A stretch of 64,000 nt of DNA from an uncultured Candidatus Poseidoniales archaeon. GTDB taxonomy: Archaea > Thermoplasmatota > Poseidoniia > Poseidoniales > Thalassarchaeaceae. The notes beneath the pieces were generated by a model. That model was not told the DNA's origin, did not search any database, and saw only the letters and a list, made by a program, of their open reading frames with translations. This document shows, piece after piece, positions 19,396 to 63,008 of this stretch. The first letter of the stretch is position 1; every line of letters starts with the position of its first letter. The stretch is taken from the NCBI GenBank assembly GCA_902593945.1, contig CACJKA010000001.1:105905-169904 (forward strand), written 5' to 3'. The translations under genes and the position numbers were made by a program.

Positions 19396-19857
19396 TTATA
19401 ACAAAACATACGGCAGATGGAAAAGTAAATCAAAAACGACTGCGAGAGCTTTGGCCTCTGATTTAGGATTTCCTTGACTCTCTTTATTTGGAGGAGAAAG
19501 TCTCTGTAGTTCGCCGGAATCAAACCAAAATGATGAACATTTAGGACAACCATCAATCTCAATTAATTCTGTTAAAGAGCCATCAATTTTCCTGAAGGCG
19601 AAATCTCGAACTTTCATCCCACTCTGGCAAAAAGGACAACAAATTTCAGTTGGAGTGCCTTCGTCTTCGAAGCCAACATGTAGTGATTTCAATTTTTTAC
19701 TACAAATCTCTGATGATGCAGACTGAGAATTTAGAGCTAATCCAGCACAAGATGGACAGTGAAATATTCCATTACGAGAAAATACTGATTTCTCACTTTC
19801 ATCGGGAGAAACAAGAGGAGTACCATCTCTGGGGCATAACATATTGTCTATCACCAA
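19396..19857 (-). CDS. Twin zinc-ribbon protein (two zf-TFIIB/PF13453-like C-x2-C...C-x2-C...W.D.GEL modules) with hydrophobic C-terminal tail
   Basis: Module 1 is MLCPRDGTPL...FHCPSCAGLAL. Module 2 is CCPFCQSGM...IDGCPKCSSFWFDSGELQRL. The protein ends in LAVVFDLLFHLPYVLL. The start may be the internal MLCPRDG at 19842. Confidence 0.7.
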   Translation of the reverse strand: MVIDNMLCPRDGTPLVSPDESEKSVFSRNGIFHCPSCAGLALNSQSASSEICSKKLKSLHVGFEDEGTPTEICCPFCQSGMKVRDFAFRKIDGSLTELIEIDGCPKCSSFWFDSGELQRLSPPNKESQGNPKSEAKALAVVFDLLFHLPYVLL

Positions 19858-21658
19858 AATAGCCGAACAGATTATTCCTATTGAATACTTACCCGGATTT
19901 CTTATGTTTTATTCCGTTTGCAGTGTTTATATGTGGTCAAAGAATTATTTCGATATGGTCGGCTATTGTAATTGGTGTAAAGGAGAAATTAGAACAGAGT
20001 GGAAATTGTGTTCTGGATGTCGATTGTTATCTCCGGAATTTATTGGGATGGATATAACTCCATTTTTATCGGAGGAACGAAATAAAGAAACTAACGAAAT
20101 TCTGGCACCTGCTAGAGGATTAACTAATTATCAAAGAATTAAACATCTAACTCAAGATGTAGATTTAGGAATATCATTACCTTCGATTCTTAGATCTAAA
20201 AGAAAGGGCGGATTAAACAGTATAAACTACGACCCGAAAGAGTGGGAGAAAATTACAAATTATTGGGAACGCTTTGAGCAGATTAGGCCTGGGAATTATT
20301 TTTTCCCAGATGGTTCAAGACTATCCATTAGCGGAAATTGTGTATTCCACATTAACGGACAGATATTAAATGGAAATATACCAATTTTAGATATAGCAGA
20401 ATGGCTTTCAAATCCATTACGTTCAGAATCCATAAGGTATTGGGATGACCTGATATTATTATTGGACTGTACACTGACTAAACTTCCAATTTTATTCAGA
20501 GATGAAGAAAGTTGGGCAAAATGGGTAAATGATAATTCTTGGAGGGGGATTGATTACCCCTGGAAAATAGGAAGAGGGGCGTCACACTTAACGGCGAGAG
20601 TACCTCCATTCTTGTTGTACATATATGAAAAATATAAATCAAGATATTTTGATGAAGATGGGGAGATAGTAAACATGTCAATACCTGAAGTAATTAGAGA
20701 AAATTTAGATGATTTAAAATTAAAAAAATATGGCGTATTGGGCGAGAATTGGGCAAACATATTCGAGAATGATAACCTTCCAAAAGAATATAGGAAAAAG
20801 ACCGTTCCTATCTTGATAGTAAGTAATCATAGATTCAAATTATTTACCATTAAAGATGAAAAACCCGCAATATTTTCAGTTGGAAATGACCCTAGAGATT
20901 GGAGAATATTGCTGACCTGGGCACTTCAACCAAATGGAGAAAGAGGGAGTGAATTAATTCAAGGTTTACTAATGAATTGGCACAAAGAAGAAAGCATTTG
21001 GCAACCAAGTAAAAGACAAATTATTTCTGCAAGATTATTACATGATGAGATTGTGAAATTGGAGGATTTTTCATCATTGTCGCCACTTGAATATGATGAA
21101 TCAACTCCTGGTCTTTTCGTTAAAGGAACTTCAGGATTTTACTATGTTATTTCACCCACTTCAGAAATGAAGCTCAAAGTTGATGCTATACCCGGACCTT
21201 TTGACATATGCAGAGCATATACAATTGGGATTGATTTATGCATAGATCCAATAATAATGGATGATATACCATTTGGAGACGTTGCAGTAAGTTATTTACT
21301 TGCACTTCATAATGATGAAGATTCTAGGAGATATATTTTCACATTAGATCTATTTTTGAACTCTTTAGAGAAAACGGATAGAAAACTGGATGATGACACT
21401 TTTTGGGAAACTGTGGAAAGTAATTATGAGAAATTATTAGAAGAAATACAAACACCTTGGCCCTTCGATGATGATGAAATAGAAGCTGAGATAGAACAAT
21501 TTGAAAGAGAACAACTTGCAATTAATCTTAATGAAGAATATGAATATGATAAAGAGATGGAAAGAATGATGGAGGAAGAAAGAGATAGATTAGAAGAACA
21601 ACTAGAAGAAGAATTCCAAGATTTTTGTAGAAATATGGCATTAAAGGGAGATGATTAA
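19844..21658 (+). CDS. Large uncharacterised protein, paralog 1: N-terminal zinc ribbon, approx. 450-aa unknown core, C-terminal acidic coiled coil
   Basis: Zinc ribbon CNWCKGEIRTEWKLCSGC. The core shares conserved blocks with the next ORF. The tail is EEIQTPWPFDDDEIEAEIEQFEREQL...EEERDRLEEQLEEEF. By analogy with paralog 2, the probable true start is MVGYCNWC at 19955. Confidence 0.7.
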   Translation: MSITKIAEQIIPIEYLPGFLMFYSVCSVYMWSKNYFDMVGYCNWCKGEIRTEWKLCSGCRLLSPEFIGMDITPFLSEERNKETNEILAPARGLTNYQRIKHLTQDVDLGISLPSILRSKRKGGLNSINYDPKEWEKITNYWERFEQIRPGNYFFPDGSRLSISGNCVFHINGQILNGNIPILDIAEWLSNPLRSESIRYWDDLILLLDCTLTKLPILFRDEESWAKWVNDNSWRGIDYPWKIGRGASHLTARVPPFLLYIYEKYKSRYFDEDGEIVNMSIPEVIRENLDDLKLKKYGVLGENWANIFENDNLPKEYRKKTVPILIVSNHRFKLFTIKDEKPAIFSVGNDPRDWRILLTWALQPNGERGSELIQGLLMNWHKEESIWQPSKRQIISARLLHDEIVKLEDFSSLSPLEYDESTPGLFVKGTSGFYYVISPTSEMKLKVDAIPGPFDICRAYTIGIDLCIDPIIMDDIPFGDVAVSYLLALHNDEDSRRYIFTLDLFLNSLEKTDRKLDDDTFWETVESNYEKLLEEIQTPWPFDDDEIEAEIEQFEREQLAINLNEEYEYDKEMERMMEEERDRLEEQLEEEFQDFCRNMALKGDD

Positions 21659-23309
21659 TTTGCATAAATGTTTAGGATGTGGGGCTGAAGTTGTTATTAA
21701 AGATTGGAAAGATCGAAATTGGTGCGATATTTGTGAAATCTTAATTCCAGAAATAACGGAATACTCATTGTTATCGATACCAAATAAGAATAATGCAGAG
21801 AAACTCGGGAATATCCTTAGAAAACCATCATCGAAAATTAACAATGTCTGGAAATCATTCAATAATATTGATAGGAGAGAGAAAAGTTGGTTCATTTTAG
21901 AAAATAAACAAGTTTGTAAAAGAAAACTATTTGATTGGAACGAAAATGAGAATAACATCTCTACAATATTTTCTGAGGATGACAAGGAATTATTTACTTC
22001 AGGTGATCAAAGTAAAGGAAATTTGGAGACTCTGAGAAGATTACAAAGAGGGGGAATCTTACCTGACGGAAGTCATATCTCATGGATTTCCGGGAAATTC
22101 TTTCTTGATGGTGAAGTGGTTAACTTACCATACATCGACCTGAGAGAAATATTAGAAAAATCTACTGATTATAATAAATATAATTGGAAACTAATATTAT
22201 ATCTAATATCACTAGCTACAGAAAACACACCTGTATTTGATAAAAAAAAAGGATTTCCACGCTTTCTTAGGCGAAGACCAAGACTTAATACGAAATACAT
22301 TTGTAAGCACCCTGTAAACAACTTAGAAACAAGAGAAAATAAAAGGCTCTATGATTCAATAAAAGAAATTACATCATTAGATTTGCATGAAGATATGAGA
22401 TATTGGATTAATAGTTGGAATAGAGTTTTGTCAGATAAATCTAGAATATACCCTAAAAGACATGAAATTCCAATATCTTTAATCATTGACAAAGGGAGAC
22501 TAATGTTAAGGGTGAGGAGAAACGATAAATGGAGAAAAATTAGGGTCCCTAGAAATCTAGACATTTGGTCAATTCTGATAAATTGGTGTCTTATGTTACC
22601 AGGCGGTGAGGGGAGAAATCATCTTGAATCTCTGCAATATTACTTATTCTGTGATTCAGAAATGGAGATTATAACAAAAACAGAAAGAAATGGCATAGAA
22701 TTTCTTAGAGGAATTATAGACAATTCAAATGGTAAAGCTTCTGTTGAGGGAAAAAAGATAGTGGTTGAAGGGCAATATGGTGTCAAATATAGCATATCAC
22801 CAGGTTTCGGCCCTCATGGTTCTAGATTCAAAGTATTTACAGATATAGTTACTGATAAAGACAATATTCAGGAAGAAATGTTCAGGAGACTGAATAGAAG
22901 ACTACGTGGACTTGGAGGGGCAAATACGAAACAGAAAGAGCTGTGTATAGTTGAAGAACCACATTTACGAAAATTAGTCATTGGAGATGCAATTGGGAGT
23001 ATCGTTATGGCTTTGCTTAATGATGATAAATCAAGAAAGAAAATAGATACCCTAGATAAGCATCTTTCTCAATTTGATTCTGAAGGAGAAGTAAATAATA
23101 GAGAAATAATTGACCAAAATAATCGCCAAGAAATTGATCAAATATTACAGAGAATTGAATATGAAGAAGAACAGATTGCTAGAATACAAGAAAGAATCCC
23201 GGGAGATTTCAATGAAAGAAGAATAGTCGTAGTAAGGAATCAGTTGGAAGTGTTACAAGAGAGATTCAGGTATCTTCAGCGAGTTTTAGACGATAGGGGC
23301 CGAGTCTAG
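21651..23309 (+). CDS. Large uncharacterised protein, paralog 2: N-terminal zinc ribbon, unknown core, C-terminal coiled coil
   Basis: Zinc ribbon CLGCGAEVVIKDWKDRNWCDIC at residues 7-28. It overlaps paralog 1 by 8 bp. Shared blocks with paralog 1: LPDGSHISWISGKFF / FPDGSRLSISGNCVF, DIWSILINWCLMLPGGEGRNHLESL / DWRILLTWALQPNGERGSELIQGL, and LCIVEEP...IGDAIGSIVMALLNDDKSRKKI / LCIDPII...FGDVAVSYLLALHNDEDSRRYI. Confidence 0.7.
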   Translation: MINLHKCLGCGAEVVIKDWKDRNWCDICEILIPEITEYSLLSIPNKNNAEKLGNILRKPSSKINNVWKSFNNIDRREKSWFILENKQVCKRKLFDWNENENNISTIFSEDDKELFTSGDQSKGNLETLRRLQRGGILPDGSHISWISGKFFLDGEVVNLPYIDLREILEKSTDYNKYNWKLILYLISLATENTPVFDKKKGFPRFLRRRPRLNTKYICKHPVNNLETRENKRLYDSIKEITSLDLHEDMRYWINSWNRVLSDKSRIYPKRHEIPISLIIDKGRLMLRVRRNDKWRKIRVPRNLDIWSILINWCLMLPGGEGRNHLESLQYYLFCDSEMEIITKTERNGIEFLRGIIDNSNGKASVEGKKIVVEGQYGVKYSISPGFGPHGSRFKVFTDIVTDKDNIQEEMFRRLNRRLRGLGGANTKQKELCIVEEPHLRKLVIGDAIGSIVMALLNDDKSRKKIDTLDKHLSQFDSEGEVNNREIIDQNNRQEIDQILQRIEYEEEQIARIQERIPGDFNERRIVVVRNQLEVLQERFRYLQRVLDDRGRV

Positions 23310-24387
23310 AGAATATGGTCTTAGTACCCTTAACTGGATTCTTCTTATGTAGTTCCTGGATATCTTTATTATCAAAGTCCAAAAATATCATTGAGTCGAC
23401 TAATGATAATAGAGCTGCAATTTGGGAGTCTCGGTTCCTGAATTTACCGTCCATTGCGTTTGATGAGAAATCATCTACTGGCTCACCATTTAATGATAAT
23501 ATTGTAATTGCTTTGTTAATTATCTCTCTGACTTTTGTATAATCAATATATGATGCCAGATGATCTCTGAAGGTGTTAAGATGGAATAATAATTCATTTC
23601 TCCTGAGCTCAATGTGCGAATGTTCATCTAAATAAGAACTATTTACAGGTATATTATAATCATTAGAAATTAATTGTCGAGATATGAACTTGATTTCTTT
23701 AGAGACGTCATCTCTGTGAATATTCCACTTCTCTTGTATCTGAAGAACAGGGTTAGGATATAATTTACGATTTAGTAATATCAAAGAAGCAACAGCGAAT
23801 ACCCGAATTTTATATTCAGACTTTTGAATACGAGTAGTTAATATCTTACAACCTTTCAATGTATCACGATTTGTAGAAAGCTTATTGTTTGTGTTTGAAA
23901 CATTCAGAACTTCTTCTAGAACGCTTAGTGTTCGTCCTCTAACTCCAGCATTTTCTGCCTCAATTACAATTTTCTCCACATAACTAAGTTTTTCCTGAGA
24001 CATTCTGTTCTGAAGGAAATAAAGCCTTCTAGATAAAGAAGAACCGTCCCTAGTTATTTGACTCCCCAAACGTGACAATGTATTATTTCTTCTTCTAATC
24101 TGTACTTCACTGGGGTGAGTATATCCTGTATCGTATCCAAGTTGAATTAGGGGCAAACCACAAGCAACACAATGGCTATATGAATCGCCTTCTTCTGTGA
24201 TTTGTCCACCACATCCACCACATCTTTCTTCGTTATTTCTACTATTTTCTGCTCTATTTGAATTACACATTTTCCGTACCTCTATTGCCCGTGGGAGAAC
24301 TATTACCCGTCCCAAATAGGTACTACTCATAGCCGGACTTTGGTGGTAGCATCGGGGGTGTTTAAGCATTGTGTAAGTATGTCGCAA
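23266..24387 (-). CDS. Divergent TFIIB/TFB-like protein (zinc ribbon + B-linker-like segment + degenerate cyclin-fold region)
   Basis: Ribbon CGGCGGQITEEGDSYSHCVACGLPL. LGSQITRDGSSLSRRLYFLQNRM resembles the TFB linker (...D..G..L....R..RLRKWQ.R). KIRVFAVASLILLNRKLYPNPVLQIQEKWNIHRDDVSKEIKFISRQL resembles a cyclin-repeat helix set. The start is uncertain (M1 24387, M20 24330, M40 24270). The 3' end overlaps the convergent paralog-2 gene by 44 bp. Confidence 0.55.
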   Translation of the reverse strand: MRHTYTMLKHPRCYHQSPAMSSTYLGRVIVLPRAIEVRKMCNSNRAENSRNNEERCGGCGGQITEEGDSYSHCVACGLPLIQLGYDTGYTHPSEVQIRRRNNTLSRLGSQITRDGSSLSRRLYFLQNRMSQEKLSYVEKIVIEAENAGVRGRTLSVLEEVLNVSNTNNKLSTNRDTLKGCKILTTRIQKSEYKIRVFAVASLILLNRKLYPNPVLQIQEKWNIHRDDVSKEIKFISRQLISNDYNIPVNSSYLDEHSHIELRRNELLFHLNTFRDHLASYIDYTKVREIINKAITILSLNGEPVDDFSSNAMDGKFRNRDSQIAALLSLVDSMIFLDFDNKDIQELHKKNPVKGTKTIFSRLGPYRLKLAEDT

Positions 24388-24448: not shown

Positions 24449-24685
24449 CTAACAATTTTCTTCTCGCCAGCTAAAAAGATTGAATATCCCTTCTGCCATT
24501 TCCCTCATAGTAATATGATCTTCATTACTCTCTAAAGCTAACTTAACAAGAGTTTTTAGTTCCTCATCTATATTCTCTGAAATTAATGTTTCAATTATCA
24601 ATTCAACGTCTATTGCATGACCTTGTGATTTAGACAATAATTCATTGAGCTTCTCTAAAGACTCTCGATAATCTATTGCCATCAA
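24449..24685 (-). CDS. 78-aa acidic all-helical protein, unknown function, translationally coupled to the E1-JAMM gene
   Basis: Its ATG overlaps the stop of the upstream gene (ATGA, 4-bp overlap at 24682..24685). Helical heptad-like sequence. The single Cys is the C-terminal residue (..WREENC). Confidence 0.55.
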   Translation of the reverse strand: MMAIDYRESLEKLNELLSKSQGHAIDVELIIETLISENIDEELKTLVKLALESNEDHITMREMAEGIFNLFSWREENC

Positions 24686-25881
24686 ATAACCTCCGAATAG
24701 TCATAATTTATGATTGGCTCATCAGTCCAAATGCTCAAACGACCTGATTCAGACAACTTATCTATAGAATTATCATTAATCTTGATTGTCTTTTTGTAAT
24801 GATCATGGCCGAGAACAATTGCTTTATCGAGAATATCTGAATATATTGAAATTGTTTCTTTATCGGTTGATGACCAGTATGCATCTCTTGGATGAGTATG
24901 TATCCATAATTTGTATGGAATTTCAGAACCCACTGGAGGAGCTAATTCTACACGGCCAGATGTCCCTATATCAACCCAAATTGAAGAATTATTATCATAG
25001 AGAATACTTACCTCCTTGCCTAAATCATCAGCAAGGCCCCATAGAGATGGCCAATCCTTTTTCTCGGCTAAACCTGCTAAAGTTTCTTTGATTATTATGG
25101 AATGATGATTCCCATTTGAAACCTCCCTCATTACATCTGAATCTGAGTGTATCATTGGAATAATTACTCCACCCACTGCATCTAAATCTGATTCTTCTGA
25201 AGATTGAGCTAATCTTGTTGCAGTTCCAAAACTTATGCTAGATACCTGGGGAAATGGCCTCTGAGCTATATCATCTCCAGATTGAATCCTTAACGATTGT
25301 ATCAACCATTGTGCACCATGAGATGCTGCGACCATAAAACCAAATTGTATATTGCCTGAATCAATAGCACCTTCGAACTGGCAAGATTGTGAATCTTGTT
25401 CCGGAGTGAATTCCGAAATTAAATCCGACTTAACTGAGTCATCCAATGCGATGTAGCCATCACCTAAGCATCTCAAATCCAACCAATTTTCGTAATTCTC
25501 ATGCACTACTCTTCGCGCTTGATGGGAATCTACTGCAACTACTACAATATCACATGGAAGTAAATCGCTACTAGATCTAATATCCCAGGGGCAGGGTTGT
25601 AATATTAAATTAGGTCCTTCATTTATTGATTTATCACTTTCATTCCAAAGTCTATTGCACAAAGTAGTTACTTTTAACCCACCTACATCAGAAATATTGA
25701 AATTCTGATGAGGGAGATTTTTTTTCTCTACAATGTCTGAATCATAGATACAAATTCTAATGTCGCCTATGTTATCCACTAAATCTCCTTGCTGTAATGT
25801 AGGATATACCATCGAAACTAAATTTGAGCCTATGCCTCCTGCACCGATTATTGCTATTACTAATTCTTCATCAATATTCAT
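24682..25881 (-). CDS. Fusion protein: N-terminal E1-like (ThiF/MoeB/UBA-type) adenylation domain + C-terminal JAMM/MPN+ metallopeptidase domain
   Basis: Residues 9-20 are IAIIGAGGIGSN (Rossmann GxGGxG). Residues 46-61 are YDSDIVEKKNLPHQNF (E1 D.D.V...NL.RQ signature). Residues 111-119 are DIVVVAVDS (Mg/ATP Asp). Residues 326-340 are WIHTHPRDAYWSSTD (JAMM HxH-x6-S-x2-D). There are no MoeB-type CxxC pairs and no rhodanese domain. Confidence 0.8.
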   Translation of the reverse strand: MNIDEELVIAIIGAGGIGSNLVSMVYPTLQQGDLVDNIGDIRICIYDSDIVEKKNLPHQNFNISDVGGLKVTTLCNRLWNESDKSINEGPNLILQPCPWDIRSSSDLLPCDIVVVAVDSHQARRVVHENYENWLDLRCLGDGYIALDDSVKSDLISEFTPEQDSQSCQFEGAIDSGNIQFGFMVAASHGAQWLIQSLRIQSGDDIAQRPFPQVSSISFGTATRLAQSSEESDLDAVGGVIIPMIHSDSDVMREVSNGNHHSIIIKETLAGLAEKKDWPSLWGLADDLGKEVSILYDNNSSIWVDIGTSGRVELAPPVGSEIPYKLWIHTHPRDAYWSSTDKETISIYSDILDKAIVLGHDHYKKTIKINDNSIDKLSESGRLSIWTDEPIINYDYSEVI

Positions 25882-25944
25882 ATTATCACTCTCATTTCTT
25901 GGCTTTGCACCAAGATGGTAGTCATTATCCTAAACTACTAAGAT

Positions 25945-25966
25945 AATAAATGATTAATCATTTATT
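25945..25966. repeat. Perfect 22-bp palindrome AATAAATGATTAATCATTTATT followed on the plus strand by a T-run, in the gap between the Ubl and E1-JAMM genes
   Basis: Read directly: the sequence equals its own reverse complement. It is flanked by T6 (25967..25972), which reads as an A-run preceding the hairpin on the coding (minus) strand. Confidence 0.7.
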
Positions 25967-25997
25967 TTTTTTGAAAATCCGTCTTTGAAAAATTTTC

Positions 25998-26228
25998 CTA
26001 AAATCCACCTGTCAGACCTGGCATAATTCGGATTGTTCCAACATCAGCCCAATTAGCACCAGCAATATCTGTAGCTTGTACCATCTGATTGTCTTTGTAA
26101 ATCCAAGATCCCTGATTCATTTCGATAAGATCCAATGTCTCTTGCTTCGTAAGTGAAAGGGATGAATGCCCAGTACTATCGGCGATTTCTACATTTGTTC
26201 TGATATCATCCATTAACTGTTCCTCCAT
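25998..26228 (-). CDS. ThiS/MoaD/SAMP-like ubiquitin-like (beta-grasp) small protein ending in Gly-Gly-Phe
   Basis: 76-aa ORF. The C-terminus ...DVGTIRIMPGLTGGF was verified codon by codon (ggt gga ttt tag on the minus strand). The pattern matches ThiS/MoaD tails (..GDEV.FFPPVTGG) plus one extra residue. Confidence 0.7.
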   Translation of the reverse strand: MEEQLMDDIRTNVEIADSTGHSSLSLTKQETLDLIEMNQGSWIYKDNQMVQATDIAGANWADVGTIRIMPGLTGGF

Positions 26229-26368: not shown

Positions 26369-26929
26369 GTGGTAATGATCAGAATGGAAGTGGATAGGGG
26401 GATGACCTTAGATGAAGCTTACAGAAATACAGTTGATGGACTTAGGGAATTGGGATGGAAAGATCTAGCTCTAGACTCAAAGAGGAAAGGAATTAATGCC
26501 CGTTTTGAGGGGGATAACGATATTTGGGAACTACTAATTCATTTCTATAAAGAAGGAAATTATCGTATTAGTTCTAGGTCCACTTGGAAAGTACAAAACA
26601 ATACTTCTGATTTAGTTCAACACTTAGTTGAGAAGATTAATCGCGGCAACCATAAACATGATTTTAGAATGAATGATAATGGTTCTTTTGAGGTTAAAAC
26701 TTCAGCAAATATCTTAGAAAGGTATCATTTCTTTGAGGGAATGAAGAAAGTAATGATTAGCAATATCCAAGCATATGAGTCATATACCAGTATGTTGAAG
26801 AGATTTGTAAATATAACGCCTGAATATTTAGATATGGAAACAGAAGGATTTAGGGCTTTGATAAGTAGTAAAAATCCACCATCGACTATACAAGATGAAG
26901 AATTAATTCGCTTGAATTTACAAAAGTAG
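26369..26929 (+). CDS. Hypothetical cytoplasmic protein (186 aa, Cys-free), divergently transcribed from the Ubl gene
   Basis: ORF with mixed alpha/beta character and no motif recognised. It contains no cysteine, so it cannot be a thioester-forming E2. Confidence 0.5.
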   Translation: MVMIRMEVDRGMTLDEAYRNTVDGLRELGWKDLALDSKRKGINARFEGDNDIWELLIHFYKEGNYRISSRSTWKVQNNTSDLVQHLVEKINRGNHKHDFRMNDNGSFEVKTSANILERYHFFEGMKKVMISNIQAYESYTSMLKRFVNITPEYLDMETEGFRALISSKNPPSTIQDEELIRLNLQK

Positions 26930-26970: not shown

Positions 26971-29900
26971 ATGCAAAAGTCTGCCGAGGCAGGTGGAACG
27001 CCACTGAGAATCATAACTGCGGCAGCCATTTTTGATGGCCATGATGCTGCAATAGGCATCTTCAGAAGAATATTCCAGTCAATGGGATGTGAAGTAATTC
27101 ATCTTGGTCATGACAGAGGTGCTGATGAAGTTGCCAGAGCTGCTATCCAAGAAGATGCACATTGTGTTGCTATCACTTCTTATCAGGGGGGAGCAGTAGA
27201 AATGTTCACTCATACCAAACAAATTTTAGATGGTTCCGGTTTTGGCCATGTTAGCTTAGTTGGAGGGGGTGGTGGAACTATTCTTCCAAATGAGATTAAA
27301 CATTTACTTGATTCTAATATTGCAAAAATATATTCTCCAGAAGATGGAAGAGAATTAGGACTTACTGGGATGGTTTCAGATGCAATTGAAAGGGCATCAA
27401 AGAATAATCTACTTGACCCTAAAAGATTTGAATCATTGAAAGAACCTATCACTGCAGAGAATCATCCTTCGGTTTCTAAATTATTGACTTTGGCAGAAAA
27501 TGCAGATGAAAAAATGTTCAATAAAATACTAGAAAATGTTAGATCTACTGATGGTTCGAAATGTCCAGTAGTTGGCCTAACTGGCACAGGCGGTGCTGGG
27601 AAGTCAAGTCTTACAGATGAGCTGATGTTAAGAATTCAAAGAGATAATCCTGGAACTAAAATCGCCTTACTTGCTACTGACCCAACTCGTAAGAGAACAG
27701 GGGGCGCTTTACTTGGAGATAGAATAAGAATGAACTCTTTATCAGATGAAAATTTATTCATGCGCTCATTTGCTAGTAGAGATAGTGGTAGAGAAATTGC
27801 AGATTGTATAGGTCGTTCTATTGAAGCTTGTAAAGCGGTTGGATTTGACCTAGTTGTAGTAGAAACTAGTGGAATTGGTCAAGGGAACGATGCAATTACA
27901 GAAGTGGCTGATCTTTCATTATATGTTACTACAAGAGAATATGGAGCACCTAGTCAGTTAGAAAAATTGGAAATGTTAGATTCAGCAGATATTGTTGTAC
28001 TGAATAAGTTCGATAGACCTGGAGCAGAAGATGCACTAGCAGAAATCAGAAAACAATTCAAAAGAAATAGAGAGATGTGGGATGCAGATAATTCTGACCT
28101 CCCAGTTGTGCCAACTATTGCTAGTCAGTTCGCAGATGCAGGAGTTGACCAATTGTGGCAGAAACTTTGTAATTTACTAAATGAGAAATATTCTCAATCA
28201 TTTTCAGCGGCAGAGCCTAGATTAGGAGCAGATGGTCTACCACATAGATCTTCACCAATACCTCCAGAAAGACAAGGATATTTGGCTGAAGTTTCAAGCG
28301 CTATCAGAAATTATCATTCTAGAACTGAAGAAGTAGCGGAGAAAATACGTCTAGTCCAACAATTAGAGGCGGCGGCTTCTCAAATGAAAACAAAGAAGAA
28401 TAAAACAGCAGCACAAGGTCTCGAAGAAGAAGCCAAAACTATTCGTTCAGAAATACCTGAAAGTGCTTGGCAAAGTTTAGAAAACTTCAGAACTAAAGCA
28501 GAAGAGTATCGTTCAGGAGCAACCAGTTATACGGTTCGAAATAAGGATATACCAGTTAAAACAACCAAAACTACGCTTTCTGGATTAGATATGCCAAGAG
28601 TCGCATTACCTGATTACAGCGACTGGGGAGATACACTACAATGGATTAGGAAAGAGAATATGCCAGGTTCATTCCCTTACACAGGAGGTGTTTTCCCATT
28701 CAAGAGACAGGATGAATTACCAGTTAGGATGTTTGCAGGAGAAGGTAGTGCAGAGAGGACAAATAAAAGATACCACTTCCTTTCTAAAGACCAAGACTTC
28801 AACAGACTATCAGTTGCTTTTGATTCACCTAGCTTGTATGGAAACGATCCACAAGAAAGACTAGACATATTTGGAAAAGTATGTGAAAGTGGAGTTTCAA
28901 TAAGTACGGTTGATGAAATGGAAAAATTGTTCGAAGGATTTGATTTGTGTGCTGCTAATACTTCAGTGTCAAAAACAATTAATGGAAATTATTGGTGGCA
29001 CCTTGCTGCTTTCTTCAACGTGGCAATCAGACAGCAAGTCAAGAAGTTCGAAGAAGAGAATGGGCGGAAACCAGACGAGAAAGAACATGCTGAAATAAAA
29101 GCGAGAACACTGAGTACAGTACGAGGAACTGTTCAGGCCGACCAATTGAAAGAATCAATGGGTCAGAATACACTGGTATTCAATCTAGATACTGCATTAA
29201 GAATGATGGGGGATGTTGCTGAGTTCTATGTTCAAAATGAAGTAAGAAATCATTACTTCGTTTCAATTTCGGGATATCATATTGCAGAAGCAGGAGCAAA
29301 TCCAATTTCTCAAGCAGCCCTAACTCTATCCAATGGTTTGACATATGTTGAGTTATTCAATTCTAGAGGATTAGATGCAAATAAATTCCTGAGAAACTTC
29401 AGTTGGTTCTTTTCTAATGGTATGGACCCTGAATATGCAGTAATAGGAAGAGTATGTAGAAGAATCTGGGCTATTGTTATGCGGGATATGTATGGAGTTG
29501 ATGAGCGAAGTCAGAAACTGAAATATCACATACAAAGTAGTGGTAGATCATTACACGCTCAAGAATACACATGGAATGATTATCGAACTACATTACAGGC
29601 ACTTTATGCACTAGCTGATAATGCTAATTCACTACATACTAACTCTCGTGATGAGGCATTTGGAACTCCTACTGAAGATACAGTAAGAGACGCAGTAGCA
29701 ATCCAACTTATCCTTTCGAAAGAATATGGATGGTTACAAAATGAGAATCCATTACAAGGATCACATGTAGCGGATTGGTTAACCGATTCCGTCGAAGAAG
29801 AGATTTTGAAAATATTTGAAGAAATGCATAGACGTGGTGGTGTTCTAGGAGCTCTTGAAGTGAATTATCAAAGAAATAGAATACAAGATGAATCTATGAT

Positions 29901-30231
29901 TTATGAACATAGAAAACACTCTGGAGAGTTACCAATAATCGGAGTAAACACCTTCGAAGAAGGAGTAGATAATTCACTATCAGTGGAAGAATTCGATATT
30001 GAAGTTACACGCTCAGATAAAGAAGAAAGGATGATGGTTATTGATAGAAATAAAGCATTCAAAGAGACTCATGCTAAAGAAGCTGAAGAAGGTCTAGCAA
30101 GACTCAAACAAGTAGCTAGAGAGGGCGGAAATCTGTTTGAAGTTATGATGGATATTGTTGAACATTGTACTGTTGGACAGGTTACACAAGCACTATTCGA
30201 GACTGGTGGAAAGTTCCGTAGAAATATGTGA
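26971..30231 (+). CDS. icmF: Fused isobutyryl-CoA mutase-type enzyme (B12-binding domain + MeaB-like G-protein + acyl-CoA mutase barrel)
   Basis: The N-terminus TAAAIFDGHDAAIGIFRRIFQSMGCEVIHLGHDRGADEV...ITSYQGG...VGGGGGTILPNEI matches the IcmF B12 domain. P-loop GLTGTGGAGKSSL, with ETSGIGQ and LNKFD G-motifs. The C-terminal 600 aa is mutase substrate-barrel-like. The 1086-aa size is typical. Confidence 0.9.
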   Translation: MQKSAEAGGTPLRIITAAAIFDGHDAAIGIFRRIFQSMGCEVIHLGHDRGADEVARAAIQEDAHCVAITSYQGGAVEMFTHTKQILDGSGFGHVSLVGGGGGTILPNEIKHLLDSNIAKIYSPEDGRELGLTGMVSDAIERASKNNLLDPKRFESLKEPITAENHPSVSKLLTLAENADEKMFNKILENVRSTDGSKCPVVGLTGTGGAGKSSLTDELMLRIQRDNPGTKIALLATDPTRKRTGGALLGDRIRMNSLSDENLFMRSFASRDSGREIADCIGRSIEACKAVGFDLVVVETSGIGQGNDAITEVADLSLYVTTREYGAPSQLEKLEMLDSADIVVLNKFDRPGAEDALAEIRKQFKRNREMWDADNSDLPVVPTIASQFADAGVDQLWQKLCNLLNEKYSQSFSAAEPRLGADGLPHRSSPIPPERQGYLAEVSSAIRNYHSRTEEVAEKIRLVQQLEAAASQMKTKKNKTAAQGLEEEAKTIRSEIPESAWQSLENFRTKAEEYRSGATSYTVRNKDIPVKTTKTTLSGLDMPRVALPDYSDWGDTLQWIRKENMPGSFPYTGGVFPFKRQDELPVRMFAGEGSAERTNKRYHFLSKDQDFNRLSVAFDSPSLYGNDPQERLDIFGKVCESGVSISTVDEMEKLFEGFDLCAANTSVSKTINGNYWWHLAAFFNVAIRQQVKKFEEENGRKPDEKEHAEIKARTLSTVRGTVQADQLKESMGQNTLVFNLDTALRMMGDVAEFYVQNEVRNHYFVSISGYHIAEAGANPISQAALTLSNGLTYVELFNSRGLDANKFLRNFSWFFSNGMDPEYAVIGRVCRRIWAIVMRDMYGVDERSQKLKYHIQSSGRSLHAQEYTWNDYRTTLQALYALADNANSLHTNSRDEAFGTPTEDTVRDAVAIQLILSKEYGWLQNENPLQGSHVADWLTDSVEEEILKIFEEMHRRGGVLGALEVNYQRNRIQDESMIYEHRKHSGELPIIGVNTFEEGVDNSLSVEEFDIEVTRSDKEERMMVIDRNKAFKETHAKEAEEGLARLKQVAREGGNLFEVMMDIVEHCTVGQVTQALFETGGKFRRNM

Positions 30232-61946: not shown

Positions 61947-62441
61947 TCAATTATGTTGGTCCCCTTTGCTCTTTTTTATAACTTGGACATTATTAATTCT
62001 AGATTCAGGATATTGCCCATCTGAATCTTTCTCAATAGATTTCAACATATCCCATGCGCACAATAGTCCTGCATTAACTCCGCATAATGCTTCCATCTCA
62101 ACTCCAGTCCTCCAATGTGTTCGAACTGTGACTGTGCATCGCAGATTGCGGCCTTCAATACCCCATTCTACTGAGCAACCTTCGATTGGAATGGTATGAC
62201 AATGTGGTAAAATTCTTGGAGTTTCTTTCACCGCTTGAATTGAGGCAATGGTTGAAATTTCTCTAACATCTCCTTTTTTTGAACGACCTTTTACTGCATT
62301 GATTCCAGAAGATGATAATTCCAAGACTCCTGTCGCAATAGCCTCACGGAAAACTATATCTTTACTACCAACATCAACAATAGCAGACCATGAATTTTCC
62401 AATTCATCGATACTCATGTAACCTTCGGAGTTAGTACTCAT
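61947..62441 (-). CDS. moaC: Cyclic pyranopterin monophosphate synthase MoaC
   Basis: VDVGSKDIVFREAIA..., HTIPI and TGVEMEAL are conserved MoaC segments. Confidence 0.9.
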   Translation of the reverse strand: MSTNSEGYMSIDELENSWSAIVDVGSKDIVFREAIATGVLELSSSGINAVKGRSKKGDVREISTIASIQAVKETPRILPHCHTIPIEGCSVEWGIEGRNLRCTVTVRTHWRTGVEMEALCGVNAGLLCAWDMLKSIEKDSDGQYPESRINNVQVIKKSKGDQHN

Positions 62442-62477
62442 TATTCAGATAAACGGAAGTTAAATCTGGAATAAAAA

Positions 62478-62906
62478 TCATCCAAGTCCCGGTTTCCAAA
62501 TTTCACCATCGGATCTTACTTCTTTTTTCCATAAAGGTGCTTGCAATTTAAGCTGATTAATCAACCAAGAACAAGCTTCGAAGCCAGCCTTTCTATGTTT
62601 TGAACCGACATGTATGCAGACTATAGGCTCAGAAGGTTCTACTGCGCCAACCCTATGTGCAACTAAAACCGATTTAACACCAAATTTCTCAATAGAAGTT
62701 TTTGCAATATCTGATAGTACATGATTTAGTTTATTTTCCCAAGCATCAAATTCAAGTCTCTTGACGGTAATTCCATTATCTTCTCCTCTTGTTAGTCCGA
62801 CAAAAGAAACGATACTTCCACAACCTTCGACATCCATTAAAGAACGAAGAAAGTTCGGATCGAGGTTTTGATCTTCTATCCTAATGATTACTTCCTTTTC
62901 TGACAT
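62478..62906 (-). CDS. moaE: Molybdopterin synthase catalytic subunit MoaE
   Basis: GSIVSFVGLTRGE..., VAHRVGAVEPSEPIVCIHVGSKHRKAGFEACSWLINQLKLQAPLWKKE. The start is set at MSEKEV (62906), which leaves a 102-bp divergent promoter gap. Confidence 0.85.
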   Translation of the reverse strand: MSEKEVIIRIEDQNLDPNFLRSLMDVEGCGSIVSFVGLTRGEDNGITVKRLEFDAWENKLNHVLSDIAKTSIEKFGVKSVLVAHRVGAVEPSEPIVCIHVGSKHRKAGFEACSWLINQLKLQAPLWKKEVRSDGEIWKPGLG

Positions 62907-63008
62907 CTCAGTAACCCTCTTCTGAACTACCCGAAGACAAATTATCGGATGAACTCTTTGATTACAAATAACCAAACCTTTCAAACAATATACCCCATAC
63001 GCAAATGC

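What the first reader, a model, noticed from the sequence alone, without database searches (positions are those of the whole stretch)
24449..26228. Compact E2-less ubiquitin-like cassette: Ubl ending in GG-F, a single-polypeptide E1::JAMM fusion, and a coupled 78-aa helical ORF
Seen in sequence: a 76-aa ORF ends ...VGTIRIMPGLTGGF. This is a ThiS/MoaD/SAMP-type tail whose di-glycine is capped by one extra residue. The next gene on the same strand (399 aa) starts with an E1-type adenylation domain (IIGAGGIGSN; YDSDIVEKKNLPHQNF; VVVAVDS). It ends with a JAMM/MPN+ motif (WIHTHPRDAYWSSTD, i.e. HxH-x6-S-x2-D). Its stop overlaps the ATG of a 78-aa acidic helical ORF (ATGA). Established knowledge: Ubl + E1-like + JAMM triads are known as separate proteins. 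Examples are Haloferax SAMP/UbaA/HvJAMM1, mycobacterial CysO/MoeZ/Mec+, and Pseudomonas QbsE/QbsC/QbsD, where the JAMM trims residues after GG. The bacterial defence systems CBASS Cap2/Cap3 and Bil also use such parts. Inference: one polypeptide would both mature the Ubl (remove Phe76 to expose GG) and adenylate it. No UBC/E2-like ORF is nearby; the adjacent 186-aa ORF has no Cys and the 78-aa ORF has only a terminal Cys. The E1 domain lacks MoeB-type CxxC pairs and a rhodanese domain. To my knowledge this E1-N/JAMM-C fusion in an archaeal context has not been experimentally characterised.
Basis: partly seen in the sequence, partly recalled or inferred. Interest (0 to 1): 0.85.

Follow-up and report, generated by a model that had tools for sequence, protein, structure and literature searches.

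The report
Marine archaeal ubiquitin-like modification gene cluster
The three reported genes are real, but they form the core of a larger seven-gene ubiquitin-like locus found only in Marine Group II archaea (Poseidoniales), built from known parts (modifier, E1 activator fused to a JAMM protease) plus uncharacterised partner proteins where an E2 would be expected.

Summary
Observation confirmed. On the minus strand lie a 76-aa ORF ending PGLTGG-F, a 399-aa ThiF-type E1 fused to a C-terminal JAMM/MPN+ domain, and a coupled 77/78-aa helical ORF.

The E1 fold is supported by Pfam, an AlphaFold model and Foldseek (UBA5, Cap2, MccB, ThiF, BubCD). The JAMM call rests on invariant E290, H328, H330, S337 and D340, on PDB profile hits that are all JAMM deubiquitinases, and on Prok-JAB hits in relatives.

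In 58 related loci the modifier always ends in GG. After GG come 0-3 variable residues, a second modifier repeat, or the E1 itself, which argues for cleavage after GG. In paralogous clusters E1 and JAMM are separate adjacent genes. Cys167 (SCQ motif) is invariant in all 46 E1 sequences.

The "compact, E2-less, three-gene" reading is only partly right. The conserved unit also holds a TFIIB-like zinc-ribbon protein and two paralogous ~550-600-aa zinc-ribbon proteins. These share a ~110-aa module with an invariant Cys and no detectable UBC fold. In some genomes the module is fused to a di-modifier.

E1-JAB fusions were described in bacteria in 2006, and one (BubCD) was characterised in 2024. This is a new archaeal variant of a known kind. 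The modifier's beta-grasp fold was not modelled.

The parts
25998..26228 (-). Ubiquitin-like modifier precursor. The ORF is 76 aa; the probable start is Met6 at 26213, giving 71 aa. It ends ...RIMPGLTGG-F, with Phe as a one-residue cap after the di-glycine.
   Evidence: Sequence. In 58 loci the C-terminus ...PGLxGG is invariant. It is followed by 0-3 variable residues, a second repeat, a core module or the E1. In a PDB profile search the best-ranked hits are ubiquitin, aligned in register to its GG. Mono-ubiquitin scores only E 0.03-0.6, which is weak. hhalign against Ub+NEDD8 gives P=0.0019, probability 14%. The fold was not modelled.
25207..25881 (-). E1-type (ThiF/UBA-like) adenylation domain, residues 1-225 of the 399-aa protein. 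Key residues: GxGGxG 13-18, D47/D49, N55-x2-H58-Q59, K70, D118, and Cys167 in an SCQ motif, assigned to the crossover loop by analogy with other E1s (own knowledge; the alignment was not checked here).
   Evidence: Pfam ThiF E=3.9e-9, 36.5 bits against a cutoff of 28.1. PDB profile hits to MccB, UBA6 and NEDD8-E1. AlphaFold model with pLDDT 83.3. Foldseek hits to UBA5, AclA, Cap2, MccB, ThiF and BubCD at E 1e-8 to 1e-6. Residues including C167 are invariant in 46 distinct fused and split E1 sequences, whereas C138 varies.
24682..25143 (-). JAMM/MPN+ metalloprotease domain, residues ~247-399 of the same polypeptide, plus the stop codon. Motif residues: E290, H328, H330, S337, D340.
   Evidence: The motif residues are invariant in 118 sequences and in the split stand-alone paralogues. 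A profile search of the PDB returned 17 hits at E<=10, all JAMM deubiquitinases (AMSH-LP 0.006, Sst2, Rpn11-like, BilC). Pfam Prok-JAB matched 8 of 19 family members, best E 5e-5, but not the window copy itself. In the model, HxH lies on strand 325-329 and SxxD opens helix 338-346.
24449..24682 (-). Small acidic helical protein (77 aa from the ATG). Its start overlaps the E1::JAMM stop by one nucleotide (TGATG). It has a conserved DEE motif and a C-terminal W-R.
   Evidence: It follows the JAMM gene in both fused and split clusters. Alignment. No known relative was found.
23266..24387 (-). Zinc-ribbon plus helical protein, about 333 aa from the probable start at 24270. The N-terminus is of TFIIB type (CxxC...CxxC plus linker).
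   Evidence: Conserved directly downstream in fused-type clusters. Weaker relatives occur in L032, L039, L056 and L058. PDB profile hits: BRF2/TFIIIB50 residues 5-79 at E=0.0023, and the P. furiosus TFIIB ribbon at 0.13. Suggestive only.
21651..23309 (+). Large accessory protein A (552 aa). It has an N-terminal zinc ribbon (C7, C10, C25, C28), an LQRGGILPDGS motif, and a ~110-aa core module with invariant C432, D446 and D458 (H389 nearly invariant). It ends in a C-terminal coiled coil.
   Evidence: Synteny. Alignments. AlphaFold pLDDT 75.9. Foldseek found no PDB match below E=1. No Pfam, NCBIfam or PADLOC family. Only 183 clusters among 1.84 billion representative proteins.
19844..21658 (+). 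Large accessory protein B (604-aa ORF, probable start at 19955). It is a paralogue of protein A, with the same zinc ribbon and core module (LCIDP...GDVAVSYLLALHND). Its stop overlaps the start of protein A by 8 nt.
   Evidence: hhalign of A6 against A5: probability 99.7%, E=3e-26 over 423 columns. Synteny. No PDB sequence relative.
26369..26929 (+). Divergently transcribed 186-aa protein of unknown function. It is conserved beside the modifier gene only in the fused-type clusters, so its membership of the system is uncertain.
   Evidence: No known relative was found.

Best explanation
This is a ubiquitin-like protein-modification locus specific to Poseidoniales (Marine Group II archaea).

Step 1 (inferred from comparative anatomy). 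The modifier is made as a precursor. The JAMM domain of the 399-aa protein cuts directly after the invariant Gly-Gly. In the window this removes Phe76. In relatives it separates tandem repeats or releases the modifier from a fused E1 or core module.

Step 2 (inferred from conserved E1 residues). The E1 domain of the same polypeptide binds ATP and adenylates the exposed C-terminal glycine.

Step 3 (inferred). The invariant Cys167, probably in the crossover loop, takes the modifier as a thioester.

Step 4 (speculative). The modifier is passed to protein targets. This happens either directly, as in E2-independent archaeal SAMPylation, or through the invariant cysteine of the ~110-aa core module carried by the two paralogous zinc-ribbon proteins. 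These occupy the operon position that an E2 holds in bacterial Bil and Bub systems.

Step 5 (inferred by analogy). The JAMM domain also removes the modifier again.

The coupled 77-aa helical protein and the TFIIB-like zinc-ribbon protein are conserved partners whose roles are unknown; they may act as an adaptor or regulator. Whether the pathway serves housekeeping proteostasis or regulation, or virus defence, is open.
For: - E1 fold and residues.
- JAMM motif, invariant in both fused and split forms, with all PDB profile hits being JAMM deubiquitinases.
- Rosetta-stone evidence: E1 and JAMM are one gene in about 30 loci and two adjacent genes in about 25 paralogous loci.
- Processing signature: invariant ...PGLxGG is followed by F, Q, N, I, E, Y, C, L, LC, LY or SIY, by a second repeat, by a core module (L031, L032), or by the E1 itself (L049, L052, L058; the L050 E1 is split by an apparent frame break).
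- Cys167 is invariant in 46 of 46 E1 domains.
- Core-module proteins sit beside the modifier, E1 and JAMM in the fused-type clusters and in most split-type clusters whose flanks are held, usually as two paralogues. No core module or modifier was detected next to E1/JAMM in L040, L041, L042 or L045, and L038 has its modifier about 7 kb away on the other strand.
- No rhodanese domain, no CxxC pair, and no sulfur or cofactor genes in the conserved neighbourhood.
- Precedent: BubCD, a JAB-E1 fusion, cleaves its modifier fusion after Gly and activates it (PMC11601596).
Against: - No biochemistry exists; every step is inferred.
- The modifier's beta-grasp fold was not modelled. Sequence similarity to ubiquitin is weak.
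- Pfam does not call a JAB domain on the window protein itself.
- The Arg of the E1 NLxRQ motif is His58 in the whole family.
- The core module shows no UBC fold or any other known fold, so its enzymatic role is conjecture. These proteins could instead be substrates or regulators.
- L026 and L028 carry E1::JAMM and the helical protein without a recognisable modifier or large proteins nearby.
- A conserved crossover-loop Cys is also compatible with sulfur-carrier chemistry (ThiF Cys184, own knowledge).
Confidence: 0.58

Rival explanations
1. E2-independent conjugation, as in Haloferax SAMP/UbaA/JAMM1. The E1::JAMM alone activates and attaches the modifier. The two large zinc-ribbon proteins and the TFIIB-like protein are its dedicated substrates or regulators, not enzymes.
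For: No UBC fold or other known catalytic fold was found in the large proteins. Archaeal SAMPylation needs no E2 (own knowledge; PMC2948915 discusses the absence of E2 and E3 in archaea). Modifier fused to a core module would also fit a model in which the modifier is delivered fused to its client, like eukaryotic ubiquitin-ribosomal protein fusions (own knowledge).
Against: The core module keeps one invariant Cys and two invariant Asp across very divergent paralogues with 20-25% identity. That pattern is more typical of an active site than of a substrate. Two paralogous module proteins per cluster is a conserved feature.
Confidence: 0.22
2. An antiviral conflict system of the Bil/Bub/CBASS type. 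The locus tags viral or host proteins on infection by Marine Group II viruses.
For: All characterised prokaryotic operons that combine a modifier, an E1 and a JAB outside sulfur metabolism act in phage defence (PMC11601596, PMC10097602). The family shows paralogue expansion and frequent fusion, fission and domain shuffling. Content varies at one chromosomal site, with the large genes missing in L026 and L028. GC is slightly lower at 20-24 kb (0.33 against about 0.38).
Against: The locus sits at the same chromosomal position, between an IcmF-like mutase and LysE/acyl-CoA synthetase, in genomes whose E1 is only about 45% identical. That points to long vertical inheritance. PADLOC gave only weak hits to the Rossmann part. 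No neighbouring defence or mobile-element genes were seen. Pattern scans found no relatives on viral contigs.
Confidence: 0.25
3. A sulfur-carrier pair of MoaD/MoeB, ThiS/ThiF or CysO/MoeZ/Mec+ type. The E1 adenylates the small protein, which becomes a thiocarboxylate for cofactor, cysteine or tRNA thiolation. The JAMM only unmasks the GG.
For: GG-capped carriers trimmed by a JAMM exist (CysO/Mec+, QbsE/QbsD; own knowledge and PMC1779556). Cys167 occupies the position of ThiF Cys184 and MoeB Cys187 (own knowledge). MoaC and MoaE are in the window without an adjacent MoaD.
Against: MoaC and MoaE lie 36 kb away and are absent from the conserved neighbourhood in every related locus. There is no rhodanese domain, no CxxC zinc site, and no cysteine synthase or sulfur enzymes nearby. 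According to PMC1779556, E1s fused to JAB never carry rhodanese and belong to the conjugation-like operon classes. Tandem modifiers and the modifier-E1 and modifier-module fusions are atypical for sulfur carriers. hhalign against ThiS/MoaD aligns only the last 15 residues.
Confidence: 0.1
4. An MccB/PaaA/AclA-like peptide-maturation enzyme. The E1-like domain chemically modifies the C-terminus of a small precursor to make a secondary metabolite, and the JAMM acts as a leader or follower peptidase.
For: The best PDB sequence and structure matches of the E1 domain include MccB, AclA and PaaA.
Against: Those matches cover only the generic adenylation fold and score about the same as UBA5, Cap2 and ThiF. 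The substrate here is a conserved ~70-aa folded domain with ubiquitin-like C-terminal logic, often in tandem. No transporter, immunity or tailoring genes are conserved nearby.
Confidence: 0.04

Closest known systems
Type I Bub (6E.1) operons: BubAB (modifier-E2 fusion), BubCD (JAB-E1 fusion), BubE (PMC11601596); operon class 6e of Iyer et al. 2006 (PMC1779556)
   Same: One polypeptide carries both a JAB/JAMM peptidase and a small homodimer-type E1. The peptidase cuts the modifier precursor directly after the C-terminal Gly and the E1 activates it. Modifiers have 1-3 tandem repeats. The modifier can be fused to the next enzyme-like component. A metal-binding protein is present in the operon. 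BubCD is among the Foldseek hits.
   Different: The domain order is reversed: E1 then JAMM here, JAB then E1 in BubCD. Here the E1 keeps an invariant Cys, probably in the crossover loop, whereas Bub lacks a catalytic Cys and works through oxyesters. No UBC-fold E2 and no DUF6527 serine protease were detected. The system is archaeal and confined to one order.
E2-E1-JAB triple-domain proteins (Iyer class 6a; the '6A-MBL cap2_3' family) and CBASS Cap2/Cap3
   Same: The E1 is followed by a C-terminal JAB in one chain, which is the same order as here. There is no rhodanese domain. NCBIfam 6A-MBL cap2_3 and the PADLOC E1-E2 models give weak hits to the Rossmann part. Cap2 is a top Foldseek hit.
   Different: Those proteins have an N-terminal UBC-type E2 domain and no separate modifier; the CD-NTase C-terminus is what gets conjugated. 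Here there is no E2 domain, no CD-NTase or metallo-beta-lactamase neighbour, and a dedicated modifier gene.
Haloferax SAMP1-3 / UbaA / HvJAMM1 and other archaeal ThiS/MoaD-type modifiers (own knowledge; PMC2948915)
   Same: Archaeal. A modifier with C-terminal GG, a single E1, a JAMM isopeptidase, and no recognisable E2 or E3.
   Different: SAMP, UbaA and JAMM1 are separate, dispersed genes. They belong to the widespread MoaD/ThiS and MoeB families and double as sulfur carriers. Here the families are lineage-specific, clustered and fused, with polyubiquitin-like precursors and dedicated accessory proteins.
Bil systems (BilA modifier, BilB E2, BilC JAB, BilD E1) (summarised in PMC11601596)
   Same: An operon combining a modifier, an E1 and a JAB peptidase. 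BilC is among the PDB profile hits of the JAMM domain.
   Different: [quoted passage not shown] Neither is present here, and PADLOC gives no Bil hit.
JAMM-trimmed sulfur carriers: CysO/MoeZ/Mec+ and QbsE/QbsC/QbsD (own knowledge; PMC1779556 classes 3-4)
   Same: A small protein whose GG is capped by extra residues that a JAMM removes before E1 adenylation.
   Different: Those E1s carry a rhodanese domain and sit with cysteine or siderophore biosynthesis genes. Neither applies here.
Eukaryote-like ubiquitin systems of Caldiarchaeum and Asgard archaea (PMC3082918, PMC5654768)
   Same: Archaeal operons with a modifier, an E1 and an Rpn11-like JAMM. The modifier profile ranks ubiquitin first in the PDB.
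   Different: Those systems have bona fide ubiquitin, a UBC E2 and a RING E3, all detectable by sequence. None is detectable here.

Membership tests
E1-like adenylation enzymes (ThiF/MoeB/UBA superfamily) | Rossmann-type adenylation fold with a GxGxxG nucleotide loop | tested here: met
   Pfam ThiF at 36.5 bits, above the 28.1 cutoff. AlphaFold plus Foldseek hits to UBA5, ThiF, Cap2, MccB and BubCD at E down to 8e-9. G13, G15, G16 and G18 are invariant.
E1-like adenylation enzymes (ThiF/MoeB/UBA superfamily) | ATP/Mg-binding residues: acidic pair after strand 2, NLxRQ, Lys, and the catalytic Asp | tested here: inconclusive
   D47, D49, N55, Q59, K70 and D118 are invariant. The Arg of NLxRQ is His58 in every member. 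Activity cannot be judged from sequence.
E1-like adenylation enzymes (ThiF/MoeB/UBA superfamily) | Catalytic Cys in the crossover loop | tested here: met
   Cys167 (SCQ) is invariant in 46 of 46 fused and split E1 domains, and it lies in the lower-confidence stretch between strand 142-147 and helix 178-200 of the model. Its equivalence to UBA5 C250 and ThiF C184 rests on own knowledge of the motif, not on a superposition.
JAMM/MPN+ metalloproteases | E ... HxH ... S-x2-D metal and catalytic motif | tested here: met
   E290, H328, H330, S337 and D340 are invariant in 118 sequences and in the split paralogues. The spacing is x6 here and the canonical x7 in the split paralogues.
JAMM/MPN+ metalloproteases | MPN fold or recognisable family homology | tested here: inconclusive
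   All 17 PDB profile hits are JAMM deubiquitinases, but the best E is only 0.006 and covers about 30 residues. Prok-JAB matches 8 of 19 relatives (best 5e-5), not the window copy. The model places HxH on a strand and SxxD at a helix start. Foldseek output was dominated by the E1 domain, so the JAMM domain was not separately matched.
Ubiquitin-like beta-grasp modifiers | C-terminal Gly-Gly exposed by processing | tested here: met
   GG is invariant. It is followed by variable caps, by repeats or by fused domains. The cleavage itself is inferred.
Ubiquitin-like beta-grasp modifiers | Beta-grasp fold | tested here: inconclusive
The PDB profile search ranks ubiquitin first, in register to GG, but mono-ubiquitin scores only E 0.03-0.6; the polyubiquitin E-values are inflated by repeats. 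hhalign against Ub+NEDD8 gives probability 14%. No Pfam family was found.
UBC-fold E2 enzymes (tested on the large accessory proteins) | UBC fold with HPN...Cys active site | tested here: not met
   The AlphaFold model of the 552-aa protein has no Foldseek PDB hit below E=1 and no E2 among its 41 weak hits. No Pfam UQ_con or Prok-E2 hits.
Type I Bub system | JAB-E1 fusion (BubCD), modifier-E2 fusion (BubAB) and a DUF6527 protease (BubE), working through Cys-free oxyester chemistry | tested here: not met
   The domain order is reversed, an invariant Cys167 is present, and no E2 or DUF6527 was detected. It works like Bub in its first two steps but is not a member.
CBASS Cap2/Cap3, Bil and other PADLOC defence systems | Match to the curated defence-system protein models, with the partner genes present | tested here: not met
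   PADLOC gave only E1-E2 models at E>=2.6e-4, restricted to residues 6-126. There were no hits for the other six proteins.
MoaD/MoeB or ThiS/ThiF sulfur-carrier pair | Genomic linkage to MoaE/ThiG-type partners, and an E1 with a CxxC zinc site or a rhodanese domain | tested here: not met
   MoaC and MoaE lie 36 kb away and are not in the conserved neighbourhood. There is no CxxC pair and no rhodanese domain. NCBIfam ThiF models score far below their cutoffs.
TFIIB/TFB family (tested on the 373-aa zinc-ribbon protein) | N-terminal zinc ribbon plus two cyclin folds | tested here: inconclusive
   The ribbon-plus-linker region matches BRF2 (E=0.0023) and the P. furiosus TFIIB ribbon (0.13). The helical remainder was not matched or modelled.

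The most novel reading that the evidence does not exclude
The ~110-aa module shared by the two large zinc-ribbon proteins is a new, non-UBC class of modifier-accepting enzyme. The module consists of a helix, an I.V.G.SG..Y.I.P hairpin, an ICI(D/V) cysteine and a GD....LAL.(N/D)D helix. In this reading it is a functional E2/E3 analogue with its own fold, working downstream of an E1::JAMM in an order-wide archaeal ubiquitin-like pathway. Such a pathway would have evolved independently of both the SAMP system and the eukaryote-type ubiquitin cascade.
Probability: 0.25. Interest if true: 0.85.

Novelty: new variant of a known kind. Interest (0 to 1): 0.6.

Why it matters
Poseidoniales are among the most abundant archaea in the surface ocean and are uncultured, so lineage-specific cell biology can only be approached from sequence. 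This locus would be a third kind of archaeal ubiquitin-like system, beside SAMPylation and the eukaryote-like Caldiarchaeum/Asgard cascades.

It shows polyubiquitin-style precursors, modifier-enzyme fusions and a thiol-type E1 joined to its own processing protease. It links archaea to the recently characterised bacterial Bil, Bub and CBASS family of operons.

It also offers a concrete set of uncharacterised proteins that may do the E2/E3 job with a different fold: two Cys-module zinc-ribbon paralogues and a 77-aa partner. The first steps are directly testable with recombinant proteins.

Tried and rejected
1. **UBC/E2 idea for the large proteins.** It was prompted by the resemblance of LCIDP-x7-P...LLALHND to ICLDIL...WSP...LLSI..LL..PN. 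It was not supported by Foldseek on the AlphaFold model, by hhalign against canonical E2s, or by Pfam and PDB profile searches.

2. **Repeat artefacts.** The PDB profile hits of the core module to designed "Cake/Scone" propellers (E down to 3e-10) sum many 4-5-bit hairpin matches over repeats and are artefacts. The same caution applies to the polyubiquitin E-values.

3. **MoaD/MoeB explanation.** MoaC and MoaE are real, but they are distant and not syntenic with the cluster elsewhere.

4. **PADLOC, PHROG-type defence or viral origin.** There were no convincing PADLOC hits and no relatives on viral contigs (these pattern scans have limited sensitivity).

5. **Palindrome as regulatory site.** The 16-nt perfect palindrome AAATGATTAATCATTT lies between the modifier and E1 genes. 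It is compatible with chance (18 of 100 shuffles) and is not conserved in related loci.

6. **Other accessory proteins.** PDB profile searches for the 186-aa and 77-aa proteins gave nothing significant.

7. **JAMM domain by structure search.** Foldseek against the viral library, intended to expose the JAMM domain, was again dominated by ThiF-like hits. Only weak metalloprotease and deubiquitinase matches appeared, at E about 0.01-0.02.

8. **"Bacterial" homologues.** Those labelled Longimicrobiales, Verrucomicrobia, Vicinamibacteraceae and Gammaproteobacteria all sit on 3-9-kb MAG contigs. Where enough sequence is held (P0039/L004-L006, L014) they carry the same archaeal gene order. They were treated as probable binning errors.

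Full report
**1. Observation**

The three minus-strand ORFs exist exactly as described.
- 26228..25998: 76 aa, ending ...RIMPGLTGGF.
- 25881..24682: 399 aa.
- 24685..24449: 78 aa.

All quoted motifs and residue numbers check out. Two details need correcting.
- The E1::JAMM stop and the next start overlap as TGATG, sharing one base. From the ATG the small protein is 77 aa, as in orthologous gene calls.
- Orthologues start the modifier at Met6, giving 71 aa.

These are genuine genes. The 399-aa protein has 234 full-length homologues of about 400 aa, with 52-55% mean column identity and invariant catalytic-type residues.

**2. The 399-aa protein**

*E1 domain.*
- Residues 8-185 match Pfam ThiF above its gathering threshold.
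- The family profile hits MccB, UBA6, the NEDD8 E1, UBA5 and MoeB in the PDB.
- An AlphaFold model built on 118 sequences has mean pLDDT 83.3.
- Its best Foldseek matches are UBA5, AclA, Cap2, MccB, PaaA, ThiF and BubCD, at E 1e-8 to 1e-6.
- In 46 distinct E1 domains, G13/15/16/18, D47, D49, N55, H58, Q59, K70, D118, R123 and the SCQ motif with Cys167 are invariant. Cys138 is not.
- Cys167 lies between strand 142-147 and helix 178-200, in the lower-confidence region expected for the crossover loop. By its motif (own knowledge) it corresponds to ThiF C184, MoeB C187 and UBA5 C250.
- The Arg of the NLxRQ motif is His in the whole family.

*JAMM domain.*
- The C-terminal ~150 residues carry invariant E290, H328, H330, S337 and D340.
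- A profile of this domain retrieves only JAMM deubiquitinases from the PDB: AMSH-LP at 0.006, STAMBP, Sst2, the Caldiarchaeum Rpn11-like protein and BilC.
- Pfam Prok-JAB matches 8 of 19 family members, best E 5e-5, though not the window copy.
- In the model, HxH ends a strand and SxxD starts the next helix. This is the JAMM arrangement.
- I regard the JAMM assignment as sound at the family level. A separate structural match of this domain was not obtained.

**3. Distribution**

A scan of one genome per species (185,579 species) found 52 loci. Almost all are from Candidatus Poseidoniales, covering both Thalassarchaeaceae and Poseidoniaceae. The few "bacterial" labels are short MAG contigs; where enough sequence is held they carry the same archaeal gene order, so they are probably binning errors. 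Pattern scans found no relatives on viral contigs.

**4. The conserved unit is larger than three genes**

In the orthologous, fused-type loci the gene order is as follows:
- a 186-aa gene, transcribed divergently;
- then modifier, E1::JAMM, the 77-aa helical protein, and a ~330-aa zinc-ribbon protein;
- then, converging, a ~550-650-aa protein and a ~570-600-aa protein.

The flanks are an IcmF-like mutase on one side and a TFIIB-ribbon protein, LysE and an acyl-CoA synthetase on the other. This arrangement persists down to about 45% E1 identity.

The two large proteins are paralogues (hhalign probability 99.7%). Each has an N-terminal CxxC...CxxC ribbon, a ~110-aa core module with one invariant Cys and two invariant Asp, and an acidic coiled-coil tail.

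**5. Paralogous clusters are the strongest evidence for mechanism**

In about 25 further Poseidoniales loci, E1 (~220 aa) and JAMM (~170-190 aa) are separate adjacent genes. This shows the window protein is a true two-module fusion.

Every modifier domain ends ...PGLxGG. After GG comes one of the following:
- nothing;
- one to three unconserved residues (F, Q, N, I, E, Y, C, L, LC, LY, SIY);
- a second modifier repeat;
- a core module (L031, L032; core HMM E about 3e-6);
- the E1 itself (L049, L052, L058; in L050 the E1 is split by an apparent frame break).

This is the anatomy of a precursor that must be cleaved after GG, and the only protease in the cluster is the JAMM.

Core-module proteins accompany the modifier, E1 and JAMM in most of these clusters. 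Usually there are two: one upstream of the modifier, and one between modifier and E1. The helical protein follows the JAMM in several. The exceptions are L040, L041, L042 and L045, where no core module or modifier was detected beside E1 and JAMM, and L038, whose modifier lies about 7 kb away on the other strand.

**6. What the accessory proteins are not**

- The 552-aa protein modelled at pLDDT 75.9 has no Foldseek match below E=1.
- Neither large family has a Pfam, NCBIfam, PADLOC or PDB sequence relative.
- An exhaustive HMMER search of 1.84 billion representative proteins found only 183 clusters, and nine long relatives carry no Pfam domain.
- My own lead, that the Cys motif resembles the E2 active site, failed its tests. 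The locus therefore lacks any detectable UBC fold.
- The ~330-aa protein begins with a TFIIB-type ribbon and linker (BRF2 E=0.0023). The rest of it is uncharacterised.
- The 77-aa and 186-aa proteins have no relatives.

**7. Mechanism**

*Shown by sequence:* the parts and their conserved residues.

*Inferred with good support:*
- The JAMM cleaves after GG.
- The E1 adenylates the freed glycine.
- Both activities sit in one chain. This is what was demonstrated for the bacterial JAB-E1 fusion BubCD (PMC11601596).

*Inferred:* a thioester forms on Cys167. This would distinguish the system from Bub, which lacks a catalytic Cys.

*Speculative:* transfer proceeds through the invariant Cys of the core module to protein targets. 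The alternative is E2-independent attachment as in SAMPylation, with the large proteins acting as substrates or regulators.

*Sulfur-carrier rival:* unlikely. There is no rhodanese domain, no CxxC pair and no conserved sulfur or cofactor neighbours. MoaC and MoaE lie 36 kb away. The modifier profile aligns with ThiS/MoaD only over its last 15 residues.

*Role:* whether the pathway is housekeeping or antiviral is unresolved. Conserved chromosomal position argues for vertical inheritance. Paralogue expansion, domain shuffling and occasional loss of the large genes (L026, L028) are reminiscent of conflict systems.

**8. Comparison with known systems**

- E1 fused to JAB at either terminus, polyubiquitin-like modifiers and accompanying metal-binding proteins were catalogued in bacteria in 2006 (PMC1779556).
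- Jab-E1 was noted in a methanogen in 2010 (PMC2948915).
- BubCD was characterised in 2024.

The following appear to be new. Three literature searches on Poseidoniales, Marine Group II or E1-JAB/JAMM fusions found nothing on this system.
- The system is archaeal and confined to one order.
- It uses its own modifier family.
- It has E1-then-JAMM order without an E2 domain.
- It keeps a crossover-type Cys.
- It is tied to two paralogous Cys-module zinc-ribbon proteins of unknown fold.

I class it as a new variant of a known kind.

**9. Limits**

The only sequence support is a weak, in-register similarity to ubiquitin.
- Prevalence within Poseidoniales is unknown, because the locus scan depends on two peptide patterns.
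- All functional steps are inferences.

Noticed in passing
window 26971-30231 (+): A 1086-aa fused B12-binding / MeaB GTPase / methylmalonyl-CoA mutase protein (IcmF-like). It is the conserved right-hand flank of the cluster in several genomes.
   Followed up: partly
window 19396-19857 (-): A 153-aa protein with a TFIIB-type / YgiT-type zinc ribbon (Pfam E=1.4e-9). It is the conserved left-hand neighbour of the cluster, so the region holds four zinc-ribbon proteins in 5 kb.
   Followed up: partly
window 21651-21658 and 23266-23309: The two large paralogues overlap by 8 nt, stop against start, which suggests translational coupling. The 3' ends of the convergent 552-aa and 373-aa genes overlap by 44 nt.
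   Followed up: no
window 25948-25963: A perfect 16-nt palindrome, AAATGATTAATCATTT, lies in the 116-nt gap between the modifier and E1::JAMM genes, next to T-runs. It is compatible with chance (18 of 100 shuffles) and is not conserved in related loci.
   Followed up: yes
window 20000-24000: GC drops to 0.33 over the two large accessory genes, against about 0.37-0.40 elsewhere in the window.
   Followed up: no
window 61947-62984 (-): MoaC and MoaE are adjacent, but no MoaD-like small ORF lies beside them within the window. Fructose-bisphosphate aldolase class I and a GlpX-type FBPase lie just upstream.
   Followed up: partly
window 56469-59099 (-): An 876-aa protein whose only recognisable feature is an N-terminal ArsR-type HTH. 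The rest is unassigned.
   Followed up: no
L026:600-2014 and L028:807-2215: Two genomes carry E1::JAMM plus the helical protein directly beside the LysE flank, with no recognisable modifier, zinc-ribbon or large genes. Unrelated small ORFs sit upstream instead.
   Followed up: partly
L023:7-550; L056:271-7559; L025:545-880: L023 has two separate tandem modifier genes before E1::JAMM. L056 has two modifier genes and three core-module proteins in 7 kb. The L025 modifier ends ...GPALAAG instead of PGLxGG.
   Followed up: no
L004-L006 (encoding P0039), L014, L029, L035: Short contigs assigned to Longimicrobiales, Verrucomicrobia, Vicinamibacteraceae and Gammaproteobacteria MAGs carry relatives of this Poseidoniales cluster. 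This probably reflects binning contamination in public MAGs.
   Followed up: partly
modifier family, window residues 12-16 of the 71-aa form (ADxTGH): A nearly invariant (T/S)-G-H motif sits in the predicted first turn of the modifier. It is unusual for ubiquitin-like proteins and is unexplained.
   Followed up: no
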